64,000 nt of DNA, taken from the NCBI GenBank assembly GCA_026195275.1, contig JAPHQU010000003.1:7852-71851 (forward strand). The letters run 5' to 3'. Made by a program: the position numbers and the translations under genes. This document shows, one piece after another, positions 6,073-60,387 of this stretch. The DNA is from Minisyncoccota bacterium (GTDB taxonomy: Bacteria > Patescibacteriota > Minisyncoccia > Phycocordibacterales > JABMNX01). The notes under the pieces were generated by a model, which was given only the letters and a program-made list of their open reading frames with translations, was not told the DNA's origin and ran no database searches. Every line of letters starts with the position of its first letter. Within the stretch, counting starts at the first letter, position 1.

Positions 6073-6210
6073 ACAAGCGGGGATATATGGAGTGCGTTAG
6101 AATTTCAACCCTTTATCTTGTTAAAGGGTGAGAAGCTATAGTCGCAAGGTATCGTTTCTGGGTGTTAGCCGCTGGACACTCTCGCGTGGTTTACTTTACA
6201 CTTACCATAT

Positions 6211-6744
6211 ATGCGTTTTGCTGATCCAACGGCCAACATTGAACAATTTCGACTTGACCCGGGAATGTCTGTCGCAGAACTCGGTGCGGGTATTGGTGCC
6301 TATTCTATCGCTGCCGCACGCGTCGTCGGTCGTCGGGGTGTAGTCTATGCAGTTGATATACAACAAGATCTTCTTGCGCGCATCGCACACACCGCTGATC
6401 GAGAGGGTCTTGAGAATGTCGAAGTGGTCTGGGGGGATATCGAAGCAGTTGGGGGTAGCAAACTCCTCGACGAGTCGATAGATGCTATTATAGTATCAAA
6501 CGTGCTTTTCCTTACAGAAGACAAAGACGGTGTCGCGAGAGAAGCGGTGCGCATCTTAAAGAAGAACGGGAAGGTGCTCGTTGTTGATTGGAAAGATTCG
6601 TTTGGTGGTCTCGGACCAAAGAGAGACTCTATCATCACTGCAAGTGAGACAAAAGAGCTCTTTGCCCGACATGGTCTTACGGTAGAGCGGGAGATTCAGG
6701 CGGGCGCACATCATTACGGCATTATTTTTAGACAAAAAAGATGA
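6211..6744 (+). CDS. class I SAM-dependent methyltransferase
   Basis: LGAGIGAYS glycine-rich SAM-binding motif. 177 aa. Confidence 0.65.
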   Translation: MRFADPTANIEQFRLDPGMSVAELGAGIGAYSIAAARVVGRRGVVYAVDIQQDLLARIAHTADREGLENVEVVWGDIEAVGGSKLLDESIDAIIVSNVLFLTEDKDGVAREAVRILKKNGKVLVVDWKDSFGGLGPKRDSIITASETKELFARHGLTVEREIQAGAHHYGIIFRQKR

Positions 6745-8045
6745 AAAAACTAAGCACGTTTCAGATAGTCGTTACCGCGGGATTTATTATATTTACTATT
6801 CTTGGCGTGCTGCTTTTCGCGGGAGTTGGTGGTTTTGGTGGAAGAGAGGACAAGGTTGGTCCGGTAGTTGTTTGGGGGACATACGATGAGAAGATTATGA
6901 AAGACGTTCTCCGCGAGCTTTCATATGACGACAATCGTTTTGATGAAGTGTCCTACGTCGAGAAAGATGCGCGTACATTTGATACCCAATTGGTTGAAGC
7001 GCTTGCAGCGGGGAGCGGTCCCGACCTCTTCTTCTTGCAGCAGGATACAATAGTACGCCACAAGGATAAGATATACCCAATTCCATACTCAGTGGTGTCT
7101 GAACGAGCGTTTAGGGATTCTTTTATAGAGGAAGGCGAATTGTTTCTTGGTCAACAAGGAATCTACGCAATGCCATTCATGGTTGATCCTATGGTGCTCT
7201 ACTGGAATCGCGACCACTACGCACGCGCAGGCATCGCCCGACCGCCGCGCTATTGGGATGAGCTTCTCGGGTACGCTGGTGACGGCGTGCTGACTCTGCG
7301 TGGGGAGAGTGGCGCGATCCTTCAGAGTGCTTTTGCTATTGGTGGGTACCGTAATATCACTCACGCGAAGGAATTGCTTTCTCTTCTTATGCTTCAGGCG
7401 GGGACACCAATAGTCGATGATCAAGCAGTTGAACCGACGGCGCAGTTGCGCTCGTATTCTGTTGAGGGAGTCACGCCCGCCGAGAACGCCCTGCGTTTCT
7501 ACACGGATTTCGCAAACCCATCAAAGTCTATCTACACTTGGAATAGTGCGCTTCCTGAAGCGCAAAAGGCATTTGTCTCCGGCATTCTCTCAAATTATGC
7601 TGGATTCGCGGGTGAACTCTCATCAATACGGAAACAAAACCCCAATCTCAACTTCGATGTTGCGCTCATACCACAGGTGCGTGAGAGTGGTCGGACCACT
7701 ACCTTTGGAAAGATGACTGCTCTTGCGGTTCCGAAGGGTGCGCAAAACCTAGGCGGTGGTATCGCTATTGCGCTCGCGCTCTCCGAAGACGTGTCGCTTC
7801 AGAAGGTTGTCGATATGACTGGGTTCGCACCGGTATCTCGAGCGCTCCTTGCAACACGCCCAACAGACCCCTTCAAAGCGGTATTGTGGGACGCAGCACT
7901 TCAGTCAGGTGCGTGGCTTGACCCAAGTGCCGAAGCAACCGAAGGGGTATTTCAGCGTATGATCGAGTCGGTCGTCTCCGGTCGTCTCCGGATCAGTGAA
8001 GCGGTGGATACTGCACATCGCGAGCTTGAGAATCTGTTACAATAA
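6741..8045 (+). CDS. extracellular solute-binding protein (ABC-type, family 1-like) with N-terminal TM anchor
   Basis: N-terminal TM helix followed by a periplasmic binding-protein-like fold. Its start overlaps the methyltransferase stop by 4 nt, implying an operon. Confidence 0.5.
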   Translation: MKKLSTFQIVVTAGFIIFTILGVLLFAGVGGFGGREDKVGPVVVWGTYDEKIMKDVLRELSYDDNRFDEVSYVEKDARTFDTQLVEALAAGSGPDLFFLQQDTIVRHKDKIYPIPYSVVSERAFRDSFIEEGELFLGQQGIYAMPFMVDPMVLYWNRDHYARAGIARPPRYWDELLGYAGDGVLTLRGESGAILQSAFAIGGYRNITHAKELLSLLMLQAGTPIVDDQAVEPTAQLRSYSVEGVTPAENALRFYTDFANPSKSIYTWNSALPEAQKAFVSGILSNYAGFAGELSSIRKQNPNLNFDVALIPQVRESGRTTTFGKMTALAVPKGAQNLGGGIAIALALSEDVSLQKVVDMTGFAPVSRALLATRPTDPFKAVLWDAALQSGAWLDPSAEATEGVFQRMIESVVSGRLRISEAVDTAHRELENLLQ

Positions 8046-8072: not shown

Positions 8073-8408
8073 ATGAAAAAAATATTTCAAAGTATCATCG
8101 CCGCCGCTGTGTTTCTGCCGTACTCAGTAGCTGCGGCGACTGGTTTAAAGAATCCGCTTCGAAACATCAATAATTTTGAAGATTTTGTTGAACTTCTTCT
8201 CGAGGCGGTGATTCGGATCGGACTTCCGATCGCTGCACTCTTTATTGTCTACTCAGGACTTCTCTTTGTAACCGCACAGGGGAGTGAGGACAAGATAAAG
8301 AAGGCGAAAGACGTATTCTTCTACACCATTGTCGGGGTTGCGGTATTTCTTGGCTCGTGGACTCTGGCCAAGGTTATCCAAAGTACCATTAAACTATTAA
8401 CCGGTTAG
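8073..8408 (+). CDS. pilin-like small membrane protein (VirB2/TrbC-like architecture), paralog 1
   Basis: Signal peptide (AAA-TG) followed by two hydrophobic helices separated by a short charged loop. Paralogous to the next three ORFs. Confidence 0.5.
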   Translation: MKKIFQSIIAAAVFLPYSVAAATGLKNPLRNINNFEDFVELLLEAVIRIGLPIAALFIVYSGLLFVTAQGSEDKIKKAKDVFFYTIVGVAVFLGSWTLAKVIQSTIKLLTG

Positions 8409-8422
8409 TCCTTTATATATCT

Positions 8423-8695
8423 ATGAATTTCCCGATAACCTATAGTTTCTGCACTCCGGTCCAGACCTTTGGGGACTTGGTATGCCTCTTTATCTCGATC
8501 ATTAACCTCCTTATCCCGATTCTGATCTCTTTGGCGGTCCTCGGTTTCTTTTGGGGGGTATTCCAGTACGGGTTTACTGAAGGAAAGATAGAAGAAGGAA
8601 AGAAGATTATGACCTTTGGCGTGATTGCGATCTTCGTAATGGTCTCAATCTGGGGTATTCTGCGCGTCCTCGCAGAGACATTTCTTGGGGCATAG
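8423..8695 (+). CDS. pilin-like small membrane protein, paralog 2
   Basis: Shared motif LxxPIxIxLAVLxFFWG...G......G.xxMxWGIIAxFVMVSIWGxLRxL. Two TM helices. Confidence 0.5.
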   Translation: MNFPITYSFCTPVQTFGDLVCLFISIINLLIPILISLAVLGFFWGVFQYGFTEGKIEEGKKIMTFGVIAIFVMVSIWGILRVLAETFLGA

Positions 8696-8795
8696 CCGCT
8701 CTAAGTATCCACACGAATAGCGTTGCGTTTTTGCCGCAATGGCCCAATACTATACGTATACTGTTTATTACTAGGATTTAAGGATAATAAATTAC

Positions 8796-9122
8796 ATGAA
8801 AGCATTAGTAACAGCGTCAGCACTTCTCTTAACTCCGGTTCTTGTGCATGCGCAAGGGTTGCAAGGGGTTCTTGGGGTTTTCTCAGACCTCATCAATCTT
8901 GCCATTCCGCTCGTGATTGCACTTGCGGTACTTCTATTTTTCTGGGGTCTCGCTACGTACATCATGAAGGCTGGTGAGGAGAAGGAGCAGGGTCGCGATC
9001 TTATGATCTGGGGGATCATTGCCCTCTTCGTTATGGTATCAATTTGGGGTCTCGTTCGATTGCTCCAGGATACGTTTAACGTAGGTGATCAGACGCCAAT
9101 TATCCCTGGCCAGATTCGATAG
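8796..9122 (+). CDS. pilin-like small membrane protein, paralog 3
   Basis: Signal peptide (VHA-QG) plus the same two-helix motif. Confidence 0.5.
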   Translation: MKALVTASALLLTPVLVHAQGLQGVLGVFSDLINLAIPLVIALAVLLFFWGLATYIMKAGEEKEQGRDLMIWGIIALFVMVSIWGLVRLLQDTFNVGDQTPIIPGQIR

Positions 9123-9143
9123 TCAAAGACGTTCGATATTATT

Positions 9144-9386
9144 ATGTCGATTGAGCAATTTCTCCTACGCCTTGAGACGTTTATCCTCAATCCGATTCTT
9201 CTTCTCCTCTTCTCCGTTGCGCTCTTATATTTTCTGTGGGGCATCACCGTCTACATATGGAAGTCAGACAGCGAGGATGCACGAAGGAAAGGGGCGCAAC
9301 ACATGCTTTGGGGAATCATTGGTATGTTCATCATGGTTGCTGCCTACGCAATCATCAACCTTATCGGAAATACTTTTGGTATCTAA
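9144..9386 (+). CDS. pilin-like small membrane protein, paralog 4
   Basis: Same two-helix motif (LLYFLWG...WGIIGMFIMVAAYAI). Confidence 0.5.
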   Translation: MSIEQFLLRLETFILNPILLLLFSVALLYFLWGITVYIWKSDSEDARRKGAQHMLWGIIGMFIMVAAYAIINLIGNTFGI

Positions 9387-9607
9387 GGAAGATAAGACAA
9401 CCTATTAAAATAAACAACTCATACGTAATGTATGAGTTGTTTATTTTTTGCACCTCTACCGAACTTTTGTGTACAGGTTAGAGAGCAAGCCTACTCTGGC
9501 ACTTCCATTATTTCTAAAAGCTTCGCTCTAAGAAAAATTGGTCGGAAGTACTCTTATGGTAAACTTCCATGCCTTGCGGCGCCCCTATGTTCTGTAAAGC
9601 AAACACT

Positions 9608-18245: not shown

Positions 18246-19082
18246 ATGAACCTCTCAAGACATTTCACCCCAATCCTCGTCTTTTTAATGGTCCTTGTTG
18301 CAGTGTTTTCTGTGTTCCTCCTCGTGCCACTAGAGGTGCAAGCAGCAGGGCTTGTGCCGTGTGGTGGCCCAGGCGAGCCGGAGTGTAACCTCTGCTATGC
18401 GATGCAGCTAATTCAGAATGTTATCGAGTTTGCGGTGCGCATCACTTTCATCCTCGCCGCACTCCTCTTTGCGTACGCAGGCTTTCTCTTCTTTACCGGC
18501 GGCTCAGACCCAGGGCAGATCAGCAAAGCAAAAAAGGTGTTCACCAATACTTTCATTGGTATTGTGATTGTGCTTACCTCATGGTTGGTTGTCGACATAC
18601 TCCTCAAGACGCTTGCTGGTCAAGGACTCACACCGTTCACGGATATTCTCTGTGGGCAGACGGAGGCTCCAAGGACACAGGCGACCCAACCCTCACAACA
18701 AGGAGGCGGTATACAAGCGAGCGGGAGCCAGCTTACCGGTCCGGGGAGTGGTGCAAAGGAGTACCAATGGACAACAGTTCCTTTTAACCAATACTGTAGT
18801 GATGTAAAAGGCGAAGGATGGGTGAATGTTGATTCGCGTTTTTGTGGCGGGTCCAATCCCGGATCAGAGACGAGTTGTTGTGGCCTCTTTCCTTCGTCAG
18901 CTGACATGGAGACAATAGGTTCGAGCGTCTTTGATGCGGCAAACACTCAAGGTGTTGAGAACTTTGCCAGCCAATGTGCTGATCAGGGTGGATATGTACG
19001 ATATTCATGCCTTTCTTGGGGGTATGACGCGGAGACCGACGTTGAGGTGTGCGAGCGTGCGGAATACAGCTGTATTAAGTAG
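18246..19082 (+). CDS. pilin-like two-TM module fused to a Cys-rich secreted C-terminal domain
   Basis: The N-terminal half is homologous to the 8073-9386 paralogs (AALLFAYAGFLFFTGG...IGIVIVLTSW). The C-terminal ~150 aa contains about 10 Cys. Confidence 0.5.
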   Translation: MNLSRHFTPILVFLMVLVAVFSVFLLVPLEVQAAGLVPCGGPGEPECNLCYAMQLIQNVIEFAVRITFILAALLFAYAGFLFFTGGSDPGQISKAKKVFTNTFIGIVIVLTSWLVVDILLKTLAGQGLTPFTDILCGQTEAPRTQATQPSQQGGGIQASGSQLTGPGSGAKEYQWTTVPFNQYCSDVKGEGWVNVDSRFCGGSNPGSETSCCGLFPSSADMETIGSSVFDAANTQGVENFASQCADQGGYVRYSCLSWGYDAETDVEVCERAEYSCIK

Positions 19083-37467: not shown

Positions 37468-38931
37468 ATGAGCAATACTTCATTTGATTTTAATCTAAAG
37501 ATATTGCCAGCTGCAATCATGTGTGCCGGTCTGGTTGTTCTTCTATTCCTGCACCCTAATGTGTACGATGCGCAAGCGACAACAACTGCCTACCAATTTC
37601 CAAACGTCTTAGCTGACGGATCGCTTGATACTGCGTGCGCGGATGGTGCTGCTCAAGTAACATTTACCGGCTATGTCGTGACTCAGTTGATACCGAGTGC
37701 GAGTGCAAGTTGTTCTGGCGACAAACCGAAAAGAGACAGGGTAAACTACACAATATCTAGTACCGCAGAGCAAGACCTGATCATGTCGTATCTTGATAAT
37801 GGTGGATATGCTGCTGATACAGTGGTCACTGGACAGGCCTCAGGAAATGATATCTATCTGAAAATCAAAGATACTAATGGGACGGGATACATTAAGCTCG
37901 TTGAAGTTAATCCTGCTAATGGTGCGGTTATCTCGACGGTTGACACGTACTCATTTCCAATGACAATGAATATAAAATATTTGGTTACTGACCTATCGGG
38001 CTTGTTTGGTACCATCCCTGCAGGAAGTACATTCGGTATAAAATTATCTATTACCCCCGATGATCTTACGAGTACGCAAGTTGAAACCAAGTTCGGTCTA
38101 TATGGGACCACCGAGAAGCAAGACTTAGTCAATATCGATGAGACCGAGGTGGTTGTTCCTTCTGGCACGGGTGACCCATCGGACGTTGGTGGTGGTCCTG
38201 CTACGCAGGTCTATTTCTCCGGTCAGGCCTACCCATCAAGCACCGTTGAGGTTCTCAGGAGGAGTTTCATTGAAGATGTTTACCGGAATACTCCAGAAAC
38301 GACTATCGTCATGAATCCCGATGGATCGTTTTCAAATACATACGTCGGACTTTTGAGCAGTGACTATGTCTTTACGCTGCGTGCATATGACGTTGACGGA
38401 CGAACCTCAGGAGCACTCTCCTTTGTTGCCGACCTTCTCTTCACTGACACGCTAAGAGTTGAAGACATCTTCTTCCCGCCGACAGTCGGCTTCAGGAAGT
38501 CGGCGGCCCTCAAAGGCGAAGATGTGTATATCGTCGGTTATGCCGCAGGTGGGAATACGGTACTATTAGATGTAGCTGGGGTTGGTGTGCTTGAGACAAC
38601 TGCAGCAACGTCAACCGGATTCTATGAAGTGTCGCTATCGACAGACAATCTTGCAGCGGGGAGTTACTCTGTTGTCGCGAGGCAGATATCAGACACCCAG
38701 GAGAGTAATTACTCCACACCCAGATCATTCCGCGTGAGCACGTGTTGTATTCGGACTGATTTTAACGCTGATAATGAGGTAAATATAACTGATTGGAGTA
38801 TCTTCCTATACCGCTTCCAGTCCCAAGATAAGTCACTCCACGCTTCAGTAGACCTTAATGGCGATGGAAAGACTGATATCACTGACTTTAGTCTCTTCCT
38901 GCAATCCATCACAATACCCGACATCCTCTAA
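37468..38931 (+). CDS. secreted surface protein with C-terminal type-I dockerin module
   Basis: N-terminal signal/TM. The C-terminus has two Ca-binding segments, DFNADNEVNITD and DLNGDGKTDITD, each followed by SxF(L) helices. This is the canonical dockerin duplicated F-hand. Confidence 0.7.
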   Translation: MSNTSFDFNLKILPAAIMCAGLVVLLFLHPNVYDAQATTTAYQFPNVLADGSLDTACADGAAQVTFTGYVVTQLIPSASASCSGDKPKRDRVNYTISSTAEQDLIMSYLDNGGYAADTVVTGQASGNDIYLKIKDTNGTGYIKLVEVNPANGAVISTVDTYSFPMTMNIKYLVTDLSGLFGTIPAGSTFGIKLSITPDDLTSTQVETKFGLYGTTEKQDLVNIDETEVVVPSGTGDPSDVGGGPATQVYFSGQAYPSSTVEVLRRSFIEDVYRNTPETTIVMNPDGSFSNTYVGLLSSDYVFTLRAYDVDGRTSGALSFVADLLFTDTLRVEDIFFPPTVGFRKSAALKGEDVYIVGYAAGGNTVLLDVAGVGVLETTAATSTGFYEVSLSTDNLAAGSYSVVARQISDTQESNYSTPRSFRVSTCCIRTDFNADNEVNITDWSIFLYRFQSQDKSLHASVDLNGDGKTDITDFSLFLQSITIPDIL

Positions 38932-40589
38932 TGTTCATTTATATAGTTATGACCACACAGTATCGATACAAACAGATAATCTATGGAGGACTCCTGAGTG
39001 TTTTCTTATTCTTTACCATTACGTCAATGGCGCATGCCGCAACGTTACGCTTGTTGCAGAATGGCGAGTTTGATACCGGTCCCGGAGGGAAGATATCGGT
39101 GAATCTTGTGGTTGATACCGGGAGTATCTATATTAATGCCGCTGAGGCAAAAGTTTCCTTCTCAAATGATATTCTTGAACTGGTGAGTGTGGAGCGCACT
39201 GGTTCAATCTTCAACTTCTGGCTCAAAGAGCCGGAGTACTCAAATAAGGAAGGCGTTATGACGTTTGCCGGGGGTACGCCGCGTGGTGTCTCCGGTAATT
39301 CGCTACAGATACTCAGACTTCATTTCCTCGTGAAGGGCGTTGGGGATGCCGATGTGCAAATAGAGGACGGGGTAGTAAGCGCGAACGACGGAAAAGGGAC
39401 TAACGTGCTCTTTAATATCGAGAATCTCTGTATCGAGAGTTGTGGGATTGGTGCCCAGACCGTGACGACCGCGCGGCAGCCCGTAGCAGGACAAGAGCAA
39501 CCAGTTGAGGTTGTTCATACGCCAGTGCCTGGAGAAGCAACGCCCGAAGCACCGGAGCTTCGGGTGAACCTCTATTCTGATCAGACTCTGTGGCATAACT
39601 ACACCGGAGACACAATTGTGTTGTGGAAACTACCAAATGACGTAACAAAGATCGCAACCGCCTTAAACCATAATCCGAATGGAGTGCCGCAGACCTCTAC
39701 CAGCCAGCTCTCAACCGGAAAGGATTTCGGCGCACTTGATGAAGGTGTCTGGTACGTCCATGTTCAATTTAAGAACAATGTGGGCTGGGGTGCGGTCGCA
39801 CACCATCGCATCGCGATAGACACGACGCCACCGACTGTACTCGAAGTGGAAATTGAGAGAGACTCTGAGGAGGATCCGACTGCAGAGATAACACTTCACG
39901 GACACGACGCGCTCTCGGGAATCTCCCATGCAGATATTTATATTGATGGAGAGAAGATAGAAACTGTCTCATCAAGAGAAGGACATCTCGAAACATCTCG
40001 CCTTGTTCTCCCATCGGTTAATCCGGGCCGTCATGTGATTGGTGTTGAGATGTTTGATGTTGCCGGAAATAGTATTGAAGAGCGAATGGAGATTGATGTC
40101 TTACCAATCCAAACTCCGAGGATTGTTTTTAAGCCTGAGGTTGCGCACCTTGCTGGTGGTGAATTTGTATGGGGGTACGGAATGGCGCACACGCTCGTCA
40201 CGCTTCGGCTGGTCTCCGAAGAAGGGTTTGAAGTCTTCTCAAAGACCGTAGAGAGTACCGGCGAGGGACATTGGATGGTGAATCTCGACACAGCACTTCC
40301 TAATGGTGTGTACACACTCGAGGTGAGCGCTGAAGATGAGCGCGGTGCACGAAGCTACCCAACTACAACAGCATTGGTGGTTAAAGAAGAGATATGGATA
40401 TTCACAATTGGCGCTCACGACTTTAGTCTGCTCGAGATTGTACTTGCCGGCGCCCTACTGCTCATCTTTGTGTCTGGGTTTGTACCTGAATCACGAAAAG
40501 AGGCAATCTTACGAAGATTCTTTGCCCAGAAGGAAAAGAGCAAGGAAAAGAAGCCGACAAAGGAGAAGCGTGCTTCAACGGGACGGTGA
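38931..40589 (+). CDS. membrane-anchored protein with N-terminal cohesin-like domain
   Basis: After the signal/TM comes GKISVNLVVDTGSIYINAAEAKVSFSNDILELVSVERTGSIFNF..., matching the cohesin beta-sandwich pattern. Ig-like middle region, C-terminal TM helix and basic tail. Confidence 0.5.
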   Translation: MFIYIVMTTQYRYKQIIYGGLLSVFLFFTITSMAHAATLRLLQNGEFDTGPGGKISVNLVVDTGSIYINAAEAKVSFSNDILELVSVERTGSIFNFWLKEPEYSNKEGVMTFAGGTPRGVSGNSLQILRLHFLVKGVGDADVQIEDGVVSANDGKGTNVLFNIENLCIESCGIGAQTVTTARQPVAGQEQPVEVVHTPVPGEATPEAPELRVNLYSDQTLWHNYTGDTIVLWKLPNDVTKIATALNHNPNGVPQTSTSQLSTGKDFGALDEGVWYVHVQFKNNVGWGAVAHHRIAIDTTPPTVLEVEIERDSEEDPTAEITLHGHDALSGISHADIYIDGEKIETVSSREGHLETSRLVLPSVNPGRHVIGVEMFDVAGNSIEERMEIDVLPIQTPRIVFKPEVAHLAGGEFVWGYGMAHTLVTLRLVSEEGFEVFSKTVESTGEGHWMVNLDTALPNGVYTLEVSAEDERGARSYPTTTALVVKEEIWIFTIGAHDFSLLEIVLAGALLLIFVSGFVPESRKEAILRRFFAQKEKSKEKKPTKEKRASTGR

Positions 40590-40655
40590 TGGTGGATGGC
40601 TTACAACGTAGCACGTCAACTTCATATCTAACAGATTTGTGGTAATATAATCCAT

Positions 40656-41111
40656 ATGAACAAACGTATTTCTGGGTTTACTATTCTCGAACTCTTAGTC
40701 GTTGTTGCAATCATTGGTATCATGACCTCGATTGCACTTTTCATGCTCACTGATGCGCGGGAGAAGGGGCGTGATAGTCGTCGTTTCGATGATCTCGCAC
40801 AGATCAAGAATGCGCTCGAGCTCTACAGTTCTGACAACAACGCACTCTACCCGGCTGGTAGTAGTCTCGACTCCGTAGTGAACGGCGGTTATCTAAAGAA
40901 GCTCCCAGTAGACCCGCTTAATACCGGAGTGTACACATATATGTATCAAGCGACTGACTTCTCTGGTACTGCTTGCAATAGCAATGCCTGCACCAGCTAC
41001 GTGCTCAAGGGTGTCCTTGAGCAGACAGAACAAGAAGCGCTTGTCTCAGACGTTGATGGTGTTATTGGAGGGTTGGATTGCGCTGACCCGGCACTTTGTA
41101 TCACCCCATAG
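40656..41111 (+). CDS. type IV pilin / pseudopilin (prepilin-type N-terminal cleavage/methylation domain)
   Basis: MNKRISGFTILELLVVVAIIGI class III signal with the G-FTxxE motif. Confidence 0.8.
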   Translation: MNKRISGFTILELLVVVAIIGIMTSIALFMLTDAREKGRDSRRFDDLAQIKNALELYSSDNNALYPAGSSLDSVVNGGYLKKLPVDPLNTGVYTYMYQATDFSGTACNSNACTSYVLKGVLEQTEQEALVSDVDGVIGGLDCADPALCITP

Positions 41112-41138
41112 AGAGGTAAGAGATAACCAGTTCAGCTT

Positions 41139-41513
41139 ATGAATAATAGAATGATTATAGGGGTACTTGTAGTAATTGCGTTGCTCTTTGGGTGGTATTA
41201 CTACAATGAGGGCACTGCTGCTGGTCAGTATGACGAGTTTGCTCAATGTATTACTGATAGCGGTACAAAATTCTACGGAACATTCTGGTGTCCGCATTGT
41301 CAAAACCAAAAGAAGGTTTTTGGTTCATCAGAAAAATTCTTACCGTACATCGAGTGCTCAACCCCGAATGGACAAGCACAGCTTCAGATCTGTAAAGATG
41401 CGGGAGTCATGGGATATCCCACGTGGGAGTTCCCTGATGGAAGTCGTCTGACCGGGGAAGTGGAATTCTCAACACTTGCTGAGGAGACTGGCTGCACGTT
41501 GCCACAGCAGTAA
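41139..41513 (+). CDS. thioredoxin-fold protein (DsbA/VKOR-partner-like), CPHC active site
   Basis: N-terminal TM helix; FWCPHCQ redox motif. Confidence 0.65.
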   Translation: MNNRMIIGVLVVIALLFGWYYYNEGTAAGQYDEFAQCITDSGTKFYGTFWCPHCQNQKKVFGSSEKFLPYIECSTPNGQAQLQICKDAGVMGYPTWEFPDGSRLTGEVEFSTLAEETGCTLPQQ

Positions 41514-41526
41514 TGAAATCATTGAT

Positions 41527-42063
41527 ATGACATCATTTGTTGAACAACTTAATCTCATCCTCTCTTTAGGTATTATCGCGCTTCAAATGTCTGCATGTTT
41601 CGTCTTCCTCCTTTTTCTCTTTAAGAAGAAACACCCTGTTCTGAGGCTTATACGCAAGTACGGACTTTTAATCGTGTTTGCCCTCTCTCTGTTGGGGGCA
41701 GTCATGACACTTGTGTACTCTGAGGTTTTTGGTTTTGTCCCGTGTAGTTTGTGTTGGCTTCAACGAGTCTTCTTGTATTCACAGGTAGTTGTTGTAGGGA
41801 TTGCTTTGGTAAAACGAGAACAAGTCGCTATGGTGGCGGATTATCTCATAGGACTCTCGGTTTTCGGTGCGGTTGTTGCGCTTTATCAGCACCTCTTGCA
41901 GGTAGGTGAGCGCGATCTTGTTGGTTGCCCAGTATCAGGCGGGGACTGCTCACAGCGCATCCTCTTTGAGTTTGGTTACATTACCTTCCCGCTTATGGCG
42001 TTCACGCTTTTTGCTGCAATCACTGTATTTATGCTTGCGGCACGTCGTGTTCGGACGTCATAA
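41527..42063 (+). CDS. disulfide bond formation protein B (DsbB/BdbC family)
   Basis: Four TM helices with Cys pairs in both periplasmic loops (CSLCWLQR; CPVSGGDC). Confidence 0.65.
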   Translation: MTSFVEQLNLILSLGIIALQMSACFVFLLFLFKKKHPVLRLIRKYGLLIVFALSLLGAVMTLVYSEVFGFVPCSLCWLQRVFLYSQVVVVGIALVKREQVAMVADYLIGLSVFGAVVALYQHLLQVGERDLVGCPVSGGDCSQRILFEFGYITFPLMAFTLFAAITVFMLAARRVRTS

Positions 42064-42160: not shown

Positions 42161-43420
42161 ATGAGACGAGAATTTCCAAAAGGTTTTTTCTGGGGTGCGT
42201 CAACCTCTGCACACCAGGTTGAAGGAGGTACTCACAACGACTGGAGTGAGTGGGAGAAGGAAAACGCAAAACGGCTAGCCGAGAGTGCTGGCGTGGGCAC
42301 CGATGTGTGGAAGAGTTGGGAATCGCGTGATCGAGGACGCTTCCCAGAAATGCTTGAAGAAGCAAACTATATTTCGGGTAGAGCAGCTGACCATTACAAC
42401 CGCTTTGAGAAAGATTTTGATATCGCGAAATCGCTCGGGCACAATGCGCACCGCTTCTCGATCGAGTGGTCGCGTATAGAGCCGGAAGAAGGGAAGTTTG
42501 ACGAAAAAGAAATAGAACATTACCGCACTGTCATCGCAGCACTTCGTGCGCGGGGTATGGAGCCGTTTGTAACTCTTTGGCACTGGCCGATCCCGCTGTG
42601 GCTTGAGAAGAAAGGAGGTCTTGAGTCACGGGAGTTTGTGTCACATTTCACTCGTTATACAGAAAAGGTTGTTGCGGCACTTGGTGCAGATGTTGTGTTC
42701 TGGATCACACTCAATGAACCCGAGGTGGTTGCTGGTCATGCATACCTTAAGGGATGCTGGCCTCCACAGAAGAAAAGCTATAGTGCATACCGCCGGGTCA
42801 TTAGAAACCTGATCCGAGCGCACAAGGCAGCGTACACAGTTATCAAGGAATCCCACCCTGAAGCAAAGGTGTGCGTCGCGAAGCACAACATCTACTTCGA
42901 GAGTGCTGGAGGGTTCATCAACAAGGCACTCAAGTGGGTCGCAGATCGGTGGTGGAATGATTGGTTCCTCAATGAGACCAAAGGGTATCAAGATGTCATC
43001 ACGCTCAATCATTACCACCGTAACCGCATCAATTACGGGTTTAATGAAGATCACAATGAGCGTATCTCCGATATGGGCTGGGAGCTCCACCCGGAGTCGC
43101 TTGCGCAGATGGCACGTGAGATGCACGAGAAATATAAACTCCCGATCTACGTGACCGAGCATGGGCTTGCGGATGCGGATGACTCTCACCGCGAGTGGTT
43201 CATTACCGAATCACTCAAACATCTACACCATGCGATTGAAGAAGGGGTTGATGTGCGCGGGTACCTGCACTGGTCGCTCCTTGATAATTTCGAGTGGGAC
43301 AAGGGCTTCTGGCCGCGCTTTGGACTTGTGGCGGTTGATTTTAAAACTCAGGAGCGAAAAGTCCGCCCTTCTGCACAGGTGTATAAGAAGGTCTGCGAGT
43401 CGAACGTGTTAGAATTATAA
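42161..43420 (+). CDS. beta-glucosidase, glycoside hydrolase family 1
   Basis: FPKGFFWGASTSAHQVEGG N-terminal signature, NEP acid/base motif and ITEHG/YVTEHG nucleophile motif. Confidence 0.9.
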   Translation: MRREFPKGFFWGASTSAHQVEGGTHNDWSEWEKENAKRLAESAGVGTDVWKSWESRDRGRFPEMLEEANYISGRAADHYNRFEKDFDIAKSLGHNAHRFSIEWSRIEPEEGKFDEKEIEHYRTVIAALRARGMEPFVTLWHWPIPLWLEKKGGLESREFVSHFTRYTEKVVAALGADVVFWITLNEPEVVAGHAYLKGCWPPQKKSYSAYRRVIRNLIRAHKAAYTVIKESHPEAKVCVAKHNIYFESAGGFINKALKWVADRWWNDWFLNETKGYQDVITLNHYHRNRINYGFNEDHNERISDMGWELHPESLAQMAREMHEKYKLPIYVTEHGLADADDSHREWFITESLKHLHHAIEEGVDVRGYLHWSLLDNFEWDKGFWPRFGLVAVDFKTQERKVRPSAQVYKKVCESNVLEL

Positions 43421-43434
43421 AAACCTATTACACC

Positions 43435-44379
43435 ATGTCTGTCTGGATCCTTCTCGTCGTCGTTGCTCAATTTCTGAACGCAATTGTTGCGGTTATTGAT
43501 AAATATATTGTGACCGCGCGTGTGGTACACAAACCGATTACATATGCGTTTTACGTGAGCATTCTCTCGGTGTTCGCGATATTTGTCTTTTTCTTTAGTT
43601 GGGTTGAGATACCGCTTGATGGCGTTTCCATTCCTTCGATTGAGAACGTTGGTTTTCCCAACATTGAAATACTGCTTCTCTCGGTCATTGCCGGGTTTGC
43701 ATTCTTTGGTTCTCTGGTTGCGCTCTTTACCGCGCTCCGTGATGCAGACACTTCAGACGTTATCCCGGTTGTTGGTGCGTTCTCCGCGATTGGGTCATTT
43801 GTCTTGAGTTTTTATTTTTTAGAGTTCTCTCTCACTCATAATTTTCTTTGGGGGTTCGCGCTTCTGGTCATCGGTACGCTACTCATCTCACTCTTTCGTT
43901 TTTTAAAAGCGCAGACTCTTCTCGTCGCGATTGTCTCTGGATTGCTTTTTGCGACACATTTCGTGTGTCTCAAGGTGCTCTTTGGTTATACACACTTTGA
44001 TAATGCGTTCTTTTGGTCGCGTGTTGGTATTGTCATCCCGGCGCTCCTGGTGTTTGTCCTTCCGTGGATACAGATCCACCCAAAGAAGAAAGCAATGTCC
44101 GCTGAGGTGCCGCGCAAGAATGCTATTGCGATTATATTGGGAAATAAACTCCTTGCTGGGATTGCGAGTATTATGATACTTAAGAGTATTGAACTTGGAG
44201 AGGTGAGTATTGTGCAGGCGCTTGGTGGGCTGCAGTTTGTCTTTCTTCTTATGTTTGCGGTTATCAGCGGTAAGAGTTTGCCGCAGGCGTGTGGAGAGAG
44301 ATGCTCGAGGTATGACGTCTGGCAGAAGATCATATCGGTCAGTATTATTACCGCCGGATTCTTTGTTCTCTTCCTCTAG
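43435..44379 (+). CDS. DMT-superfamily (EamA-like) membrane transporter
   Basis: About 10 TM helices arranged as two repeats. Confidence 0.5.
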   Translation: MSVWILLVVVAQFLNAIVAVIDKYIVTARVVHKPITYAFYVSILSVFAIFVFFFSWVEIPLDGVSIPSIENVGFPNIEILLLSVIAGFAFFGSLVALFTALRDADTSDVIPVVGAFSAIGSFVLSFYFLEFSLTHNFLWGFALLVIGTLLISLFRFLKAQTLLVAIVSGLLFATHFVCLKVLFGYTHFDNAFFWSRVGIVIPALLVFVLPWIQIHPKKKAMSAEVPRKNAIAIILGNKLLAGIASIMILKSIELGEVSIVQALGGLQFVFLLMFAVISGKSLPQACGERCSRYDVWQKIISVSIITAGFFVLFL

Positions 44380-44391
44380 GCACCGGTTATT

Positions 44392-45396
44392 ATGAAGAAA
44401 TGGCACAAAATAATTATCATTCTCGGAGTAATCGCTCTAACTGTCGTGCTGCTGCTCTCCTTGTTGTCGTATCGCCCTGTGCCAGAGCGGATCACATATG
44501 GGATGTCGTTCAATACACTCTATGCGGAGGAGTTGGGGCTTGACTGGAGAGAAACATACGACGCCATCATCGAAGATCTTGGTGTTCGACACCTTCGACT
44601 TGCTGCTCACTGGGATTTGATCGAGCCGGGAAAAGATTTCTACGACTTTAGTGAGATTGACTACCAGGTCAATGAGGCGTCAGCGCGCGGGGTTGATATG
44701 GTGGTTGGTGTCGGGCGGCGACTTCCGCGTTGGCCAGAGTGCCATACTCCGCGTTGGGCATCCGACCTCTCTTGGGAAGAGCAGAAAGTGGAGATACGAG
44801 AGATGATTAAGACGGTGGTGAACCGCTACAAGGACAACGAGAATATTCTCTACTGGCAAGTCGAGAATGAGCCGTATCTCACCGTCTTTGGAAAAGAATA
44901 TTGTGGAGAGTTTGATGAAGTATTTCTTAAAGAAGAGATTGCATTAGTCAAAGAGCTTGATCCGGGGCGTCCGATTCTCTTAACTGACAGTGGCAACCTT
45001 GGCACATGGGCGGGGGCGTACAAGAACAGCGACGTATTCGGGACCAGTGTGTATGTCTATTTCTGGAATGAAAATGTTGGACCATTTAAGTCTGTTTTAC
45101 CGCCCGCGTACTACCGTCTTAAGTACAACCTTGCACGTCTTTGGTATGGTCCTAAGACAGCGCTACTCATCGAACTTTCGGCTGAGCCGTGGCTCCTGCA
45201 GCCAATCGTTGAGACACCAATTGAGACCCAGCGTGAGCGTATGAATCTGGAGAAATTTGAGAATATCATCGCGTTTGCGCGAAAGACCGGTTTTGATACG
45301 CAGTACCTCTGGGGTGCTGAGTGGTGGTACTGGCTTAAGGAGCAAGGGGATGATGACTTTTGGCGTCGTGCGCAAGAACTGTACAAAGAGGAATAA
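44392..45396 (+). CDS. membrane-anchored glycoside hydrolase, clan GH-A (GH5-like)
   Basis: N-terminal TM helix and a (beta/alpha)8-like fold with the WQVENEP acid/base motif. Confidence 0.5.
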   Translation: MKKWHKIIIILGVIALTVVLLLSLLSYRPVPERITYGMSFNTLYAEELGLDWRETYDAIIEDLGVRHLRLAAHWDLIEPGKDFYDFSEIDYQVNEASARGVDMVVGVGRRLPRWPECHTPRWASDLSWEEQKVEIREMIKTVVNRYKDNENILYWQVENEPYLTVFGKEYCGEFDEVFLKEEIALVKELDPGRPILLTDSGNLGTWAGAYKNSDVFGTSVYVYFWNENVGPFKSVLPPAYYRLKYNLARLWYGPKTALLIELSAEPWLLQPIVETPIETQRERMNLEKFENIIAFARKTGFDTQYLWGAEWWYWLKEQGDDDFWRRAQELYKEE

Positions 45397-45504
45397 ACCT
45401 CTGCGTATCTTTGGGGTATAATCAAGATAATGAAACATGTGCCCCAGGAAATCGTACTTCTCGTTGTGTTTGGTGTCATGGTAATATTTTTCATTCTCTA
45501 AATT

Positions 45505-46434
45505 ATGTACCGCGAAATTCTCAATTCTTTTGATATATACTCTCTCCCTAATCTTGATACTGCGGTGTTAGGCGCGCTTGAGCTTTTTAAAGAGACGCCA
45601 CCGCAAGAATTTAACACCGCTTCTGTTGGCGCACGACCGCTGGTTATTGGAAGTGCGAACGCATGTGCGGTCGGCAAGATTATCTTTCGAGACACTGCCG
45701 CAATTTTTGCTGAAGAGAGTGATTATCGAAAGAAGCTCAAGATTTACCCTGATCGCGATAGCGTGGTCATTATCTCTTCCTCCGGTGGAAAACATGCAGT
45801 TTCGATAGCGGAAGAGTTTGCTGGCTCGGATATCCCGGTCTGGATCCTCACAAACAACCAACAGGCGCCTGCGGCGCGACATATTGACCCGGCACGCGTG
45901 ATACTCTTTCCAAAAAATCGTGAACCGTACACCTACAACACTTCAACATACCTCGGGATGATACTCGCTGGCTCAAGTGAGATGTGCCCCTGTGATCTTG
46001 AATACTTCTCAGAAGTGGCGCGTGTTCTACCAAGCGATATCGGAGAGTATGAAGCGTTCCTTATGACTATCCCAGGTGAATATGCAGAGTTGCGGTATAT
46101 GTTTCAGACCAAGTTCGATGAGCTTTTTGGTGGGCGTGTTACGGGGCGCGTATTCACCACTGAGGAGGTGAAGCACGCAAAGACTGTCGTGCCGTACGAG
46201 AAAGAACTCTTTATTCATCTTGGTGAAGGGAGCGAGTTGTTTCCCGAGAAGAAAGAGAGGGTTGTTGTGCCGCTTTCCGACACACTTGGATATGCAGGCA
46301 TGCTCGCACTTGGGTACTTTATCATTGGAAAAATTCAGGAAGCACACCCCCCATACTTCATCGAGAGTCTAGTTGCGTATACAAAACACGCATCAGAATT
46401 ATTTGGTCAGGATATTAGTCCTATCGTCGAGTAA
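45505..46434 (+). CDS. SIS-domain-like protein (sugar-phosphate binding), uncertain
   Basis: DSVVIISSSGGKHAVSIAEEFAGSDIPVWILTNN resembles SIS-domain motifs. Confidence 0.35.
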   Translation: MYREILNSFDIYSLPNLDTAVLGALELFKETPPQEFNTASVGARPLVIGSANACAVGKIIFRDTAAIFAEESDYRKKLKIYPDRDSVVIISSSGGKHAVSIAEEFAGSDIPVWILTNNQQAPAARHIDPARVILFPKNREPYTYNTSTYLGMILAGSSEMCPCDLEYFSEVARVLPSDIGEYEAFLMTIPGEYAELRYMFQTKFDELFGGRVTGRVFTTEEVKHAKTVVPYEKELFIHLGEGSELFPEKKERVVVPLSDTLGYAGMLALGYFIIGKIQEAHPPYFIESLVAYTKHASELFGQDISPIVE

Positions 46435-46436
46435 AT

Positions 46437-60314: not shown

Positions 60315-60387
60315 ACCTGGTCGATGACCAAAGGGGTGAGAGATTCCTCTCACCCCTCCTCTACACCCTCGAAAGGAGAAGTGAGCC

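What the first reader, a model, noticed from the sequence alone, without database searches (positions are those of the whole stretch)
8073..9386. Tandem array of four paralogous two-helix pilin-like genes
Four consecutive small ORFs of 80-111 aa share a conserved two-TM motif (…LAVLxFFWG… loop …WGIIAxFVMVSIWG…). Two of them carry cleavable signal peptides. This architecture matches VirB2/TrbC-type or type-IV-secretion-like pilins, but the family identity is not certain from sequence alone. Tandem diversification of a surface filament subunit suggests antigenic or functional variation, for example in cell-cell attachment or DNA uptake. A fifth paralog with a Cys-rich domain is at 18246.
Basis: partly seen in the sequence, partly recalled or inferred. 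Interest (0 to 1): 0.55.

Follow-up and report, generated by a model that had tools for sequence, protein, structure and literature searches.

The report
Conserved VirB2-like pilin gene array
Four small neighbouring genes (plus a fifth nearby) in an ultra-small "Patescibacteria" bacterium encode distant relatives of conjugative-pilus subunits; such pilin arrays are already known in this phylum, so the find is real but not new, although here the set is ancient, kept in a fixed order, and joined to a sugar-binding-protein-like gene instead of to secretion-machine genes.

Summary
Four + strand ORFs (8073-8408, 8423-8695, 8796-9122, 9144-9386) and a fifth (18246-19082) are real, conserved genes of Pfam PF18895 (T4SS_pilin). 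The window is housekeeping chromosome of a Candidatus Paceibacteria MAG. Profile-profile comparison links the ORF1/ORF5 class to experimentally known VirB2/TrbC pilins (94.5%; reversed and shuffled controls 2.3% or less). The other classes link to that class at 98-99.8%. Arrays of divergent VirB2-like pilins in Patescibacteria are published (Wang 2023; Quinonero-Coronel 2025), so this is a new member of a known kind. The "tandem diversification / antigenic variation" reading is not supported. In 80 related genomes the array has positional classes (head, middle, leaderless tail). Orthologues are 57-74% identical against 15-46% for paralogues. dN equals that of neighbouring housekeeping genes. 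New details: the array always follows a membrane-anchored solute-binding-protein-like gene. No T4SS ATPase lies within the window or within 6 kb in relatives. Head-class relatives are often fused to lytic transglycosylase domains. A conserved spacer before ORF3 carries a DnaA-box-like motif and a promoter. The most likely function is a heteromeric VirB2-like envelope filament or conduit. That function is inferred, not shown.

The parts
6211..6744 (+). Class I SAM-dependent methyltransferase gene. It is the first gene of the apparent operon, and its stop overlaps the start of the next gene (ATGA).
   Evidence: Pfam Methyltransf_31/11/25. It lies directly upstream of the SBP-like gene in 72 of 80 related loci, at a median distance of 5 nt. 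A promoter-like site lies at 6173-6202. Whether it belongs to the functional module is inferred from position only.
6741..8045 (+). Membrane-anchored protein (one N-terminal TM helix) resembling a family-1 carbohydrate ABC solute-binding protein. There is no adjacent permease or ATPase gene.
   Evidence: PDB 4r9f MBP1 E=1.6e-8 over residues 84-398, plus many other sugar SBPs. NCBI names it 'extracellular solute-binding protein'. No Pfam hit at 1e-3. At least 522 relatives exist in GTDB genomes. It is followed at once by pilin-like ORFs in essentially all loci that have downstream sequence.
8073..8408 (+). ORF1: head-class (subclass B) VirB2-like pilin. It has a signal peptide and two TM helices.
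   Evidence: PF18895 32.6 bits (cut-off 26.6) and TrbC PF04956 25.5 bits (cut-off 27.9). Its best hits in other arrays are at position 2 (40 loci) or position 1 (20 loci). The class profile matches canonical VirB2 at 94.5%.
8423..8695 (+). ORF2: middle-class pilin-like hairpin protein without a signal peptide.
   Evidence: PF18895 21.2 bits, below the cut-off. My own family HMM gives E=7.6e-29. It is 46% identical to ORF3. Orthologues are 59-69% identical in L001/L002.
8696..8795 (+). Conserved ~100-nt spacer holding a DnaA-box-like motif GTATCCACA (8705-8713) and a sigma70-like promoter candidate (TTGCGT 8723-8728, 17-nt spacer, AATACT 8746-8751).
   Evidence: The median gap before the penultimate gene is 100 nt, against 6-18 nt at the three neighbouring positions. 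ATCCACA occurs in 20 of 64 such spacers, against 1.4 expected, and in several relatives is followed by a clear TTGnnn-N17-TAnAAT. This is the only TATCCACA in the 64-kb window. Function is inferred.
8796..9122 (+). ORF3: middle-class (subclass E) pilin with a signal peptide. It is the candidate major subunit.
   Evidence: PF18895 31.5 bits. 429 homologues were found, mostly carrying PF18895. Its best hits are at the penultimate position in 31 of 53 loci. The AF2 model is a helical hairpin, pLDDT 82.5.
9144..9386 (+). ORF4: tail-class, leaderless 80-aa hairpin protein. It is single-copy and almost always the last gene of the array.
   Evidence: PF18895 33.8 bits. The tail class has 56 genes in 55 loci and is last in 49 of 53 complete arrays; ORF4's own best hit is the last gene in 47 of 52 loci. 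51 of 55 members lack a signal peptide.
9407..9449 (+). Intrinsic terminator that ends the operon.
   Evidence: An 18-bp hairpin followed by a U run, dG -22.4 kcal/mol, z -6.55, 0 of 200 shuffles as stable.
18246..19082 (+). ORF5: head-class (subclass A) pilin. It has a signal peptide, a GLVPCG..C..C motif, two TM helices, a disordered linker and a Cys-rich C-terminal domain of unknown fold.
   Evidence: PF18895 35.5 bits. NCBI names it 'pilin'. Its best hits in other lineages are the first gene of the SBP-linked array in 40 of 41 loci. AF2 gives a hairpin at residues 49-123 and a confident small alpha/beta domain at about 221-278. There is no significant PDB fold match.

Best explanation
The four ORFs and the fifth paralogue are subunits of the Patescibacteria-type VirB2-like ('T4SS_pilin', PF18895) system. 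Each is a small membrane hairpin protein, remotely homologous to the VirB2/TrbC pilins of conjugative type IV secretion systems. In this Paceibacteria genome they form the 3' part of one operon: methyltransferase, membrane-anchored solute-binding-protein-like gene, ORF1, ORF2, internal promoter, ORF3, ORF4, terminator. They are not recent duplicates. They represent old, non-interchangeable classes kept in a fixed order under purifying selection: a head class with a signal peptide and a long exoplasmic N-terminus, often carrying an added C-terminal domain; a middle class; and a leaderless tail class. The most likely mechanism, which is inferred, runs as follows. The hairpins insert into the cytoplasmic membrane with both ends outside. 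They are then extracted and co-polymerised into one heteromeric VirB2-like filament or envelope-spanning conduit by the VirB4/VirB6/VirB3-type machinery encoded elsewhere in the genome. ORF3, which has its own promoter, would be the abundant subunit. Head-class members would display add-on domains on the outside or tip: peptidoglycan hydrolases in relatives, and the Cys-rich domain in ORF5. The structure would serve contact with, or exchange with, a host cell. Shown here: the genes, their homology, the operon anatomy, the class order and the purifying selection. Inferred: filament formation, dependence on a T4SS, the role of each subunit and the part played by the SBP-like protein.
For: PF18895 hits lie above the gathering score for ORF1, 3, 4 and 5, and ORF1 also has a near-threshold TrbC hit. 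hhalign of the head class gives 94.5% against six annotated MPF_T VirB2/TrbC proteins including A. tumefaciens VirB2, colinear from the signal-peptide end through both helices. It gives 97% against a Macrococcoides plasmid TrbC/VirB2 protein and 93% against a Haloarcula plasmid pilin; the first lies beside an annotated VirD4-like and pLS20-type conjugation gene, the second a few genes from one annotated only as 'conjugal transfer protein'. Reversed and locally shuffled controls give 2.3% or less. The middle and tail classes match the head class at 98-99.8%. Topology is a signal peptide plus a helical hairpin. About 20 of 49 long family members (ORF5 homologues and long in-array members) carry SLT, SLT_3, Transglycosylase, VanY or phage-lysozyme domains, a fusion of VirB2-like and VirB1-like functions. 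In canonical operons virB1 sits directly upstream of virB2. Natural fusions of two or three hairpins in one chain show that neighbouring hairpins work side by side. Order and classes are conserved in 63 complete arrays. Orthologues are 57-74% identical and paralogues 15-46%. dN is 0.21-0.39 for the pilins, 0.23-0.35 for the MTase and 0.25-0.31 for the SBP. Of four array-bearing assemblies that appear in the published table, three have VirB4. In Southlakia epibionticum a six-gene PF18895 array is essential and lies inside the T4SS cluster (PMC10633639). Arrays of 2-11 such genes are reported in 383 assemblies (PMC12102498).
Against: No VirB4, VirD4, VirB6 or VirB3/PrgI gene lies in the 64-kb window. 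None was seen within 6 kb of the array in 80 related loci; that check covered only the large flanking ORFs and the shared neighbour families, not every ORF. Whether this particular genome has a T4SS could not be checked. The middle and tail classes reach canonical VirB2 only through the head class. Neither a sequence-profile search nor a Foldseek search of the PDB recovers solved VirB2/TraA pilins. No pilus made of PF18895 proteins has been observed experimentally in any organism according to the papers read. Two members lack signal peptides. The conserved partner is a solute-binding-protein-like gene, which no known T4SS pilus needs.
Confidence: 0.6

Rival explanations
1. The hairpin proteins do not form a filament. 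Together with the co-transcribed membrane-anchored SBP-like protein they form a membrane complex, for example a channel or ring of two-helix hairpins that takes up a sugar-like ligand captured by the SBP domain, working independently of a T4SS.
For: The SBP-like gene and the array are adjacent in about 74-76 of 76 loci. They stay together in lineages where the upstream MTase/GyrA neighbours have been replaced (L017/18, L025, L039). No ABC permease or ATPase and no T4SS gene is nearby. The tail class and part of the middle class are leaderless membrane hairpins. Multi-hairpin fusions resemble duplicated proteolipid subunits.
Against: Homology points to VirB2/TrbC pilins. Related arrays in Saccharimonadia lie in the T4SS cluster without an SBP gene. 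Head-class fusions are to cell-wall hydrolases, which fits an envelope-crossing apparatus better than a transporter. Synteny alone also links GyrA to the block, so adjacency is weak evidence of joint function.
Confidence: 0.2
2. The array is a set of interchangeable variants of one pilus subunit, diversified in tandem for antigenic variation or to match different host strains.
For: Identity between members is low, 15-46%. Array size varies from 2 to 7 among complete arrays of relatives, up to 8 by raw HMM hits. There are analogies with the virB2 paralogues of Bartonella and Anaplasma cited in PMC12102498.
Against: Each position has its own orthologue group conserved across genomes whose GyrA is only 56-67% identical. 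The tail class is single-copy and last in 49 of 53 arrays. The LVPC-motif head subclass occurs only at position 1. Orthologues evolve no faster than neighbouring housekeeping genes, and dN/dS is 0.16 or less in the few comparisons where it could be computed. The classes differ in architecture (leader or none, add-on domains) and not just in surface residues.
Confidence: 0.08
3. They are type IV pilus or competence pseudopilus pilins, or phage-type holins or other unrelated small membrane proteins.
For: They are small, hydrophobic and clustered. The genome does have DprA and a type IV pilin gene elsewhere.
Against: There is no class III signal peptide or N_methyl motif, although that motif is detected in the true type IV pilin at 40656-41111. 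No holin or other Pfam family scores at E of 0.005 or better apart from PF18895/TrbC. No PHROG family is hit. The locus is conserved chromosomal synteny and not a prophage.
Confidence: 0.02

Closest known systems
Patescibacteria VirB2-like pilin arrays (Southlakia epibionticum SEML1_0014-0019, Wang et al. 2023, PMC10633639; survey by Quinonero-Coronel et al. 2025, PMC12102498)
   Same: The Pfam family is the same (PF18895), the phylum is the same, the genes are in tandem on one strand, identity between members is low, and the proteins are a signal peptide plus a two-helix hairpin.
   Different: The array here is not in or beside a T4SS gene cluster. It follows a solute-binding-protein-like gene inside a conserved S1 / Lactamase_B_3 / gyrA / MTase block. 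It is smaller (4 + 1 genes). It contains leaderless members. The head/middle/tail order, the SBP link, the internal DnaA-box-like promoter and the frequency of hydrolase fusions did not turn up in text searches of those papers or in the passages read; none was read in full.
VirB2/TrbC conjugative pilins of diderm MPF_T systems (Agrobacterium VirB2, Pfam PF04956)
   Same: The layout is colinear: leader, helix, short polar loop, helix. The head class matches by profile-profile comparison at 94.5%. There is a functional link to lytic transglycosylase, as a neighbouring virB1 gene there and as a fusion in relatives here.
   Different: Those systems have one pilin gene per system, next to virB1/virB3/virB4, in a diderm envelope. 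Sequence similarity is very low (15% identity in the hhalign alignment). ORF1 falls just below the PF04956 gathering score. No cyclisation motif was examined.
TrbC/VirB2-family or 'pilin' genes of monoderm and archaeal conjugative plasmids (Macrococcoides pB8, Haloarcula pHH126) and the Mycoplasma ICE Mbov_0395 family (NF045849)
   Same: These are the best, though weak, direct sequence matches of ORF1 in 72,556 plasmids (E 0.02-3). By hhalign they reach 93-97%. ORF4 scores 28.5 bits against NF045849 (cut-off 40). All are from monoderm hosts, as Patescibacteria are.
   Different: Those genes are single-copy. The Macrococcoides gene lies beside annotated VirD4-like and pLS20-type conjugation genes; the Haloarcula gene lies a few genes from one annotated only as 'conjugal transfer protein'. 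Both are on plasmids. Here the genes are chromosomal, multiplied, and away from such genes.
Minor/major pilin sets of type IV pili and type II secretion pseudopili (analogy only)
   Same: Several conserved, non-redundant, divergent pilin paralogues are encoded in fixed order in one operon. Some carry extra domains ('modular pilins').
   Different: The fold, signal peptide and assembly machinery are unrelated. There is no homology.

Membership tests
Pfam PF18895 T4SS_pilin (VirB2/TrbC-like superfamily) | Match to the family profile at or above the curated gathering score (26.6 bits) | tested here: met
   ORF1 32.6, ORF3 31.5, ORF4 33.8 and ORF5 35.5 bits. ORF2 scores 21.2 bits, below the cut-off, but is 46% identical to ORF3 and matches the family HMM built here at E=7.6e-29.
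Pfam PF18895 T4SS_pilin (VirB2/TrbC-like superfamily) | Architecture: optional leader, then two hydrophobic helices joined by a short polar loop, with a mature part of about 70-90 aa | tested here: met
   Hydropathy segments. AF2 model of ORF3 has helix 2-57, loop 58-60 and helix 61-94, pLDDT 82.5. ORF5 has its hairpin at 49-123.
Pfam PF18895 T4SS_pilin (VirB2/TrbC-like superfamily) | Detectable homology to experimentally characterised VirB2/TrbC pilins | tested here: met
   The head class (ORF1, ORF5) matches an alignment that includes A. tumefaciens VirB2 at 94.5%, E 7.5e-8, over 84 columns; controls give 2.3% or less. The middle and tail classes (ORF2-4) link only through the head class, at 98-99.8%; directly they reach 5.3% or less. 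Profile search and Foldseek against the PDB found nothing.
T4SS pilin in the functional sense (subunit assembled by a type IV secretion machine) | Encoded with, or at least in the same genome as, VirB4 / VirB6 / VirB3-type assembly genes | tested here: inconclusive
   There are none in the 64-kb window. None was seen within 6 kb of the array in 80 related loci, judging from the large flanking ORFs and the shared neighbour families. Three of four array-bearing relatives listed in Table S1 of PMC12102498 have VirB4 somewhere in the genome. The rest of this MAG could not be read.
T4SS pilin in the functional sense (subunit assembled by a type IV secretion machine) | Polymerises into an extracellular filament | not testable with these tools
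   This needs microscopy or proteomics. None of the papers read shows a filament made of PF18895 proteins.
Patescibacteria VirB2-like pilin array (PMC10633639, PMC12102498) | Two or more PF18895 genes in tandem, or separated by one gene, in a Patescibacteria genome, with low mutual identity (reported mean 25%, maximum 54%) | tested here: met
   Four consecutive genes, 15-46% identical. The source is a Candidatus Pacebacteria MAG, locus tags OQJ98_01625-01640.
Patescibacteria VirB2-like pilin array (PMC10633639, PMC12102498) | Location inside the T4SS gene cluster, as in S. epibionticum, and essentiality for epibiotic growth | tested here: not met
   The location criterion is not met. PMC12102498 found pilin genes near virB4 in only 1135 of 1948 assemblies, so this is not a strict requirement. 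Essentiality cannot be tested here.
Type IV pilins (T4P / competence pseudopilins) | Class III signal peptide with the N-methylation motif (Pfam N_methyl, G|FTLIE) | tested here: not met
   No N_methyl hit for ORF1-5. The motif is found in the unrelated gene 40656-41111.
ABC-transporter family-1 solute-binding protein (the upstream partner gene 6741-8045) | Sequence similarity across both lobes to solved sugar SBPs | tested here: met
   4r9f E=1.6e-8, residues 84-398 of 434, plus about 30 further sugar SBPs at weaker E-values. NCBI names it 'extracellular solute-binding protein'. It is below the reporting threshold in Pfam.
ABC-transporter family-1 solute-binding protein (the upstream partner gene 6741-8045) | Encoded next to cognate permease and ATPase genes | tested here: not met
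   The neighbours are a methyltransferase and the pilin array, in the window and in 72 or more related loci.

The most novel reading that the evidence does not exclude
The unit made of the SBP-like gene plus the ordered pilin set, found across Paceibacteria, is a distinct apparatus and not just the pilus of the Patescibacteria T4SS. In this reading it is a heteromeric VirB2-like conduit whose base or tip works with a membrane-anchored carbohydrate-binding protein. Its head subunits carry cell-wall hydrolases to breach a host envelope. Its main subunits are transcribed from a DnaA-box promoter, which would tie building of the host-contact organelle to the replication cycle. That would be a nutrient-uptake or host-tapping pilus of a new type.
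Probability: 0.1. Interest if true: 0.75.

Novelty: new member of a known kind. Interest (0 to 1): 0.35.

Why it matters
Patescibacteria make up a large share of bacterial diversity and appear to live off host cells. The one genetic study available found the VirB2-like pilin array essential for epibiotic growth, yet nobody knows what the array builds. This window adds no new kind of system. It does show that in Paceibacteria, the largest class, the array is an ancient set of distinct subunit classes in fixed order under purifying selection. It is detached from the T4SS genes and tied to a solute-binding-protein-like gene, and relatives of its head class are fused to cell-wall hydrolases. That argues for a multi-subunit machine and against antigenic variation. 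It also gives concrete hypotheses about which subunit is major, which sits at the tip and which at the base, for structural and genetic work in culturable relatives.

Tried and rejected
1. A sequence-profile search of the ORF3 class against all PDB chains found nothing significant; the best hit was FliL at E 0.024.

2. Foldseek of the ORF3 hairpin model against the PDB gave no hit. A two-helix hairpin is too simple for this test to say anything.

4. An exact look-up of the encoding contig for ORF3 failed because this MAG is not in that index. The rest of the 155.6-kb contig, and therefore any VirB4 gene of this genome, could not be reached.

6. A search for T4SS genes among the large ORFs flanking 80 related arrays found only housekeeping and surface proteins.

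7. PHROGs gave no hits, so holin and phage readings are rejected. NCBIfam gave only sub-threshold hits to the Mycoplasma ICE pilin-like family.

8. Rfam found only tRNAs in the window.

9. The supplement of PMC12102498 does not list the closest relatives by accession and is truncated. Only four array-bearing assemblies could be checked for VirB4.
Full report
**Where the window comes from.** ORF3 is identical to NCBI protein 'hypothetical protein OQJ98_01635 [Candidatus Pacebacteria bacterium]' on a 155,612-bp MAG contig. ORF1, ORF2 and ORF4 are OQJ98_01625, 01630 and 01640, all named 'hypothetical protein'. The upstream gene is named 'extracellular solute-binding protein' and ORF5 'pilin'. The rest of the window is ordinary chromosome: Pth, S1, GyrA, IF2, RbfA, ClpB, MiaA, ParB, RelA/SpoT, TopA, DprA, SerRS, FtsQ, Dus, DnaX, Tgt, UvrABC, Ddl, nine tRNAs and a small sugar-use cluster. 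No ORF resembles VirB4, VirD4, VirB6, VirB3/PrgI or VirB8.

**Checking the observation.**
- The four ORFs are at the stated coordinates, on the + strand, separated by 14, 100 and 21 nt.
- Each has two long hydrophobic helices separated by a short charged loop.
- ORF1, ORF3 and ORF5 have an additional N-terminal signal-peptide-like segment. ORF2 and ORF4 do not and cannot be extended upstream.
- Pairwise comparison shows two groups. ORF2-ORF3 are 46% identical, ORF3-ORF4 37% and ORF2-ORF4 31%. ORF1-ORF5 are 32% identical. ORF1 is only about 19% identical to ORF3 or ORF4.
All five are still one family.
- A strong hairpin plus U run (9407-9449, dG -22.4 kcal/mol, z -6.55) ends the unit after ORF4.

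**Family identity.**
- Pfam PF18895 (T4SS_pilin) is hit above its gathering score by ORF1 (32.6 bits), ORF3 (31.5), ORF4 (33.8) and ORF5 (35.5), and below it by ORF2 (21.2). ORF1 also scores 25.5 bits on TrbC/VirB2 PF04956, whose cut-off is 27.9.
- PF18895 is itself a predicted family, so I tested the link to proven pilins directly. tblastn of ORF1 against 72,556 plasmids gave only weak hits (E 0.02-3). Nine of the twelve lie under features annotated 'TrbC/VirB2 family protein' (Macrococcoides/Macrococcus) or 'pilin' (Haloarcula). I inspected two of them: the Macrococcoides gene lies beside annotated VirD4-like and pLS20-type conjugation genes, and the Haloarcula gene a few genes from one annotated only as 'conjugal transfer protein'.
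- I fetched six annotated MPF_T VirB2/TrbC genes, including A. tumefaciens Ach5 virB2, and ran hhalign against class profiles built from 80 related loci.
- The head class (ORF1/ORF5) matches the canonical alignment at 94.5% probability (E 7.5e-8, 84 columns). The match is colinear from the end of the leader through both helices. It matches the Macrococcoides protein at 97.0% and the Haloarcula pilin at 93.3%.
- Reversed targets and 20 local column shuffles, which keep the hydrophobic layout, gave 2.3% or less.
- The middle class (ORF2, ORF3) and the tail class (ORF4) do not reach canonical VirB2 directly. They match the head class at 99.1% and 98.0%, and each other at 99.8%.
- A PDB profile search and Foldseek with the AF2 hairpin model (pLDDT 82.5) were uninformative.
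- No type IV pilin motif, holin family or phage family is hit.

**What is already known.**
- Wang et al. [quoted passage not shown] Their tables list SEML1_0014-0019 as PF18895 proteins and as essential.
- Quinonero-Coronel et al. 2025 (PMC12102498) searched 3,035 Patescibacteria genomes with PF04956 and PF18895. They report 441 arrays of 2-11 pilin genes in 383 assemblies, with mean identity 25%. They suggest antigenic variation or host-range adaptation.
- A 2025 review repeats this (PMC12857230).
- A profile of the ORF3 class finds 11,327 cluster representatives at E of 1e-3 or better among 1.84 billion proteins.
- The kind of thing is therefore known and common.

**What the comparative data add.**

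*The operon and its neighbours.*
- I used the upstream 434-aa gene (6741-8045) as a probe. It has one N-terminal TM helix. It resembles family-1 sugar-binding proteins of ABC transporters across both lobes (4r9f, E 1.6e-8).
- It has at least 522 relatives in GTDB genomes. The 80 best are 28-67% identical and come from MAGs labelled Kaiser-, Adler-, Taylor-, Nomura-, Ryan-, Portnoy- and Tagabacteria and others.
- In essentially every locus with downstream sequence, 2-8 pilin-like ORFs follow on the same strand, starting a few nucleotides after the stop.
- The block S1 / Lactamase_B_3 / GyrA / methyltransferase / SBP-like / array is shared by about 74 loci. Synteny breaks downstream of the array.
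- In L017/18, L025 and L039 the upstream neighbours are different genes, but the SBP-like gene and the array stay together.
- Among the large flanking ORFs and shared neighbour families, no T4SS gene was found within 6 kb of any array.

*Classes and order.*
- Community clustering of 350 array proteins gives three main classes.
- The head class sits at positions 1-2; 104 of 119 members have a signal peptide, and TM1 starts near residue 53.
- Of the middle class, 89 of 129 members have a signal peptide.
- The tail class has 56 genes in 55 loci and is last in 49 of 53 arrays. It is about 80-93 aa long, and 51 of 55 members are leaderless.
- ORF4's best hit is the last gene in 47 of 52 loci. ORF3's is the penultimate gene in 31 of 53. 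ORF1's is position 2 (40 loci) or 1 (20 loci). ORF5's is position 1 in 40 of 41.
- The GLVPCG..C..C subclass to which ORF5 belongs occurs only at position 1. In this lineage, as in L001 and L002, that gene lies 9 kb away behind clpB.

*Rates of change.* Window proteins against L001/L002 orthologues are 57-74% identical for the pilins, 56-67% for the methyltransferase, 61-67% for the SBP-like protein and 68-71% for IF2. dS is saturated. dN is 0.21-0.39 for the pilins, 0.23-0.35 for the MTase and 0.25-0.31 for the SBP. dN/dS could be computed in only three of the twelve pilin comparisons, where it is 0.07-0.16. This pattern is that of old, specialised subunits and not of a variable antigen.

*Fusions.* Of 49 long family members (ORF5 homologues and long in-array members), about 20 carry lysozyme-like or cell-wall domains. 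These are SLT 10, SLT_3 6, Transglycosylase 3, VanY 1 and Phage_lysozyme2 1; others carry PKD or Fn3 domains. In canonical operons the lytic transglycosylase VirB1 is the gene just upstream of virB2. These fusions therefore independently tie the family to an envelope-crossing apparatus. ORF5 instead carries a disordered linker and a Cys-rich domain with a confident small alpha/beta core (residues about 221-278) that has no PDB match. DsbB and a thioredoxin-like gene are present in the window. Proteins with two or three hairpins fused by Gly/Ser/Pro linkers also exist.

*Internal promoter.* The 100-nt spacer before ORF3 is a conserved feature. The median gap before the penultimate gene is 100 nt, against 6-18 nt at the three neighbouring positions. 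Twenty of 64 spacers contain ATCCACA (1.4 expected), usually as (T)TATCCACA, which is the DnaA-box consensus as I know it from E. coli and B. subtilis. A TTGnnn-N17-TAnAAT promoter follows 6-9 nt later. In the window these elements are at 8705-8713, 8723-8728 and 8746-8751. This is the only TATCCACA in 64 kb. Three of the nine 9-mers within one mismatch of the DnaA box lie in the 1.3-kb array.

**Interpretation.**
- Shown: real genes; membership of PF18895; remote homology of the head class to VirB2/TrbC; the operon anatomy; the positional classes; purifying selection; and separation from T4SS genes.
- Inferred: the hairpins co-assemble into one heteromeric VirB2-like filament or conduit made by a T4SS encoded elsewhere. 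VirB4 is reported in three of the four array-bearing assemblies I could look up.
- Also inferred: ORF3 is the abundant subunit, and the head-class members display add-on domains.
- The role of the SBP-like protein is open. A rival reading, in which the hairpins and the SBP-like protein form a non-filament membrane complex, cannot be excluded. I give it about 0.2.
- Antigenic variation, type IV pilins and holins are disfavoured.

**Verdict.** The diversification idea is not supported. This is a new member of a known kind, with some apparently unreported regularities that are specific to Paceibacteria.

Noticed in passing
window 6741-8045 (+): A membrane-anchored protein resembling a family-1 sugar solute-binding protein, with no ABC permease or ATPase gene beside it. 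It lies directly upstream of the pilin array here and in about 74-76 of 76 related Paceibacteria loci, and stays linked to the array where the other neighbours change. Searches of the three papers on Patescibacteria T4SS and pilins turned up no mention of this link.
   Followed up: partly
window 8696-8795 (motif 8705-8713; -35 at 8723-8728; -10 at 8746-8751); also 8374-8382 and 9181-9189: The conserved spacer before the penultimate pilin gene carries a DnaA-box-like GTATCCACA next to a sigma70-like promoter. ATCCACA occurs in 20 of 64 orthologous spacers, against 1.4 expected. Three of the window's nine near-consensus DnaA boxes fall inside the 1.3-kb array. This hints at DnaA-linked control of the last two pilin genes.
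   Followed up: partly
P0124, P0127, P0135, P0140, P0142 and others; loci L022, L059, L061, L079, L081 (first array gene): Head-class pilin domains are often fused at the C-terminus to peptidoglycan hydrolase domains (SLT, SLT_3, Transglycosylase, VanY, phage lysozyme) or to PKD/Fn3 domains. These amount to VirB2-VirB1-type fusions.
   Followed up: partly
P0157, P0159, P0163 (three hairpins), P0169 (two hairpins): Single polypeptides contain two or three complete pilin hairpins joined by Gly/Ser/Pro-rich linkers, with no internal restart signals. They look like genuine gene fusions of neighbouring array members.
   Followed up: partly
window 18246-19082, residues 36-50 and 136 of ORF5: Four conserved cysteines (GLVPCG..C..C before helix 1 and one just after helix 2) lie on the predicted outer side. 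They could tie the two ends of the hairpin together with disulfide bonds, which recalls head-to-tail cyclisation in TrbC/VirB2/TrhA pilins. This is speculative.
   Followed up: no
window 6211-6744 (+): A small SAM-dependent methyltransferase gene is translationally coupled (ATGA overlap) to the SBP-like gene and is conserved in that position in 72 of 80 loci. Its substrate is unknown.
   Followed up: no
window 37468-42063 (+): A separate surface-structure cluster. It holds two large secreted proteins (a dockerin-like C-terminus; a Big_13 Ig-like domain with a C-terminal TM helix), a true type IV pilin with a class III signal peptide (40656-41111), a thioredoxin-like CPHC protein (41139-41513) and DsbB (41476-42063).
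   Followed up: partly
window 59898-60948 (+): A locally GC-rich stretch (56% in 60-62 kb, against about 48% elsewhere) encodes two small secreted Gly/Ser/Ala-rich proteins, one ending in HGHGHGH. Long spurious ORFs overlap on both strands, and no family was assigned.
   Followed up: no
window 42161-47279 (+): A sugar-use cluster (GH1 beta-glucosidase, EamA transporter, a GH5/GH42-like hydrolase, an unknown 309-aa protein, a ROK kinase/regulator). It is the only carbohydrate-related context for the orphan SBP-like gene in the window.
   Followed up: no
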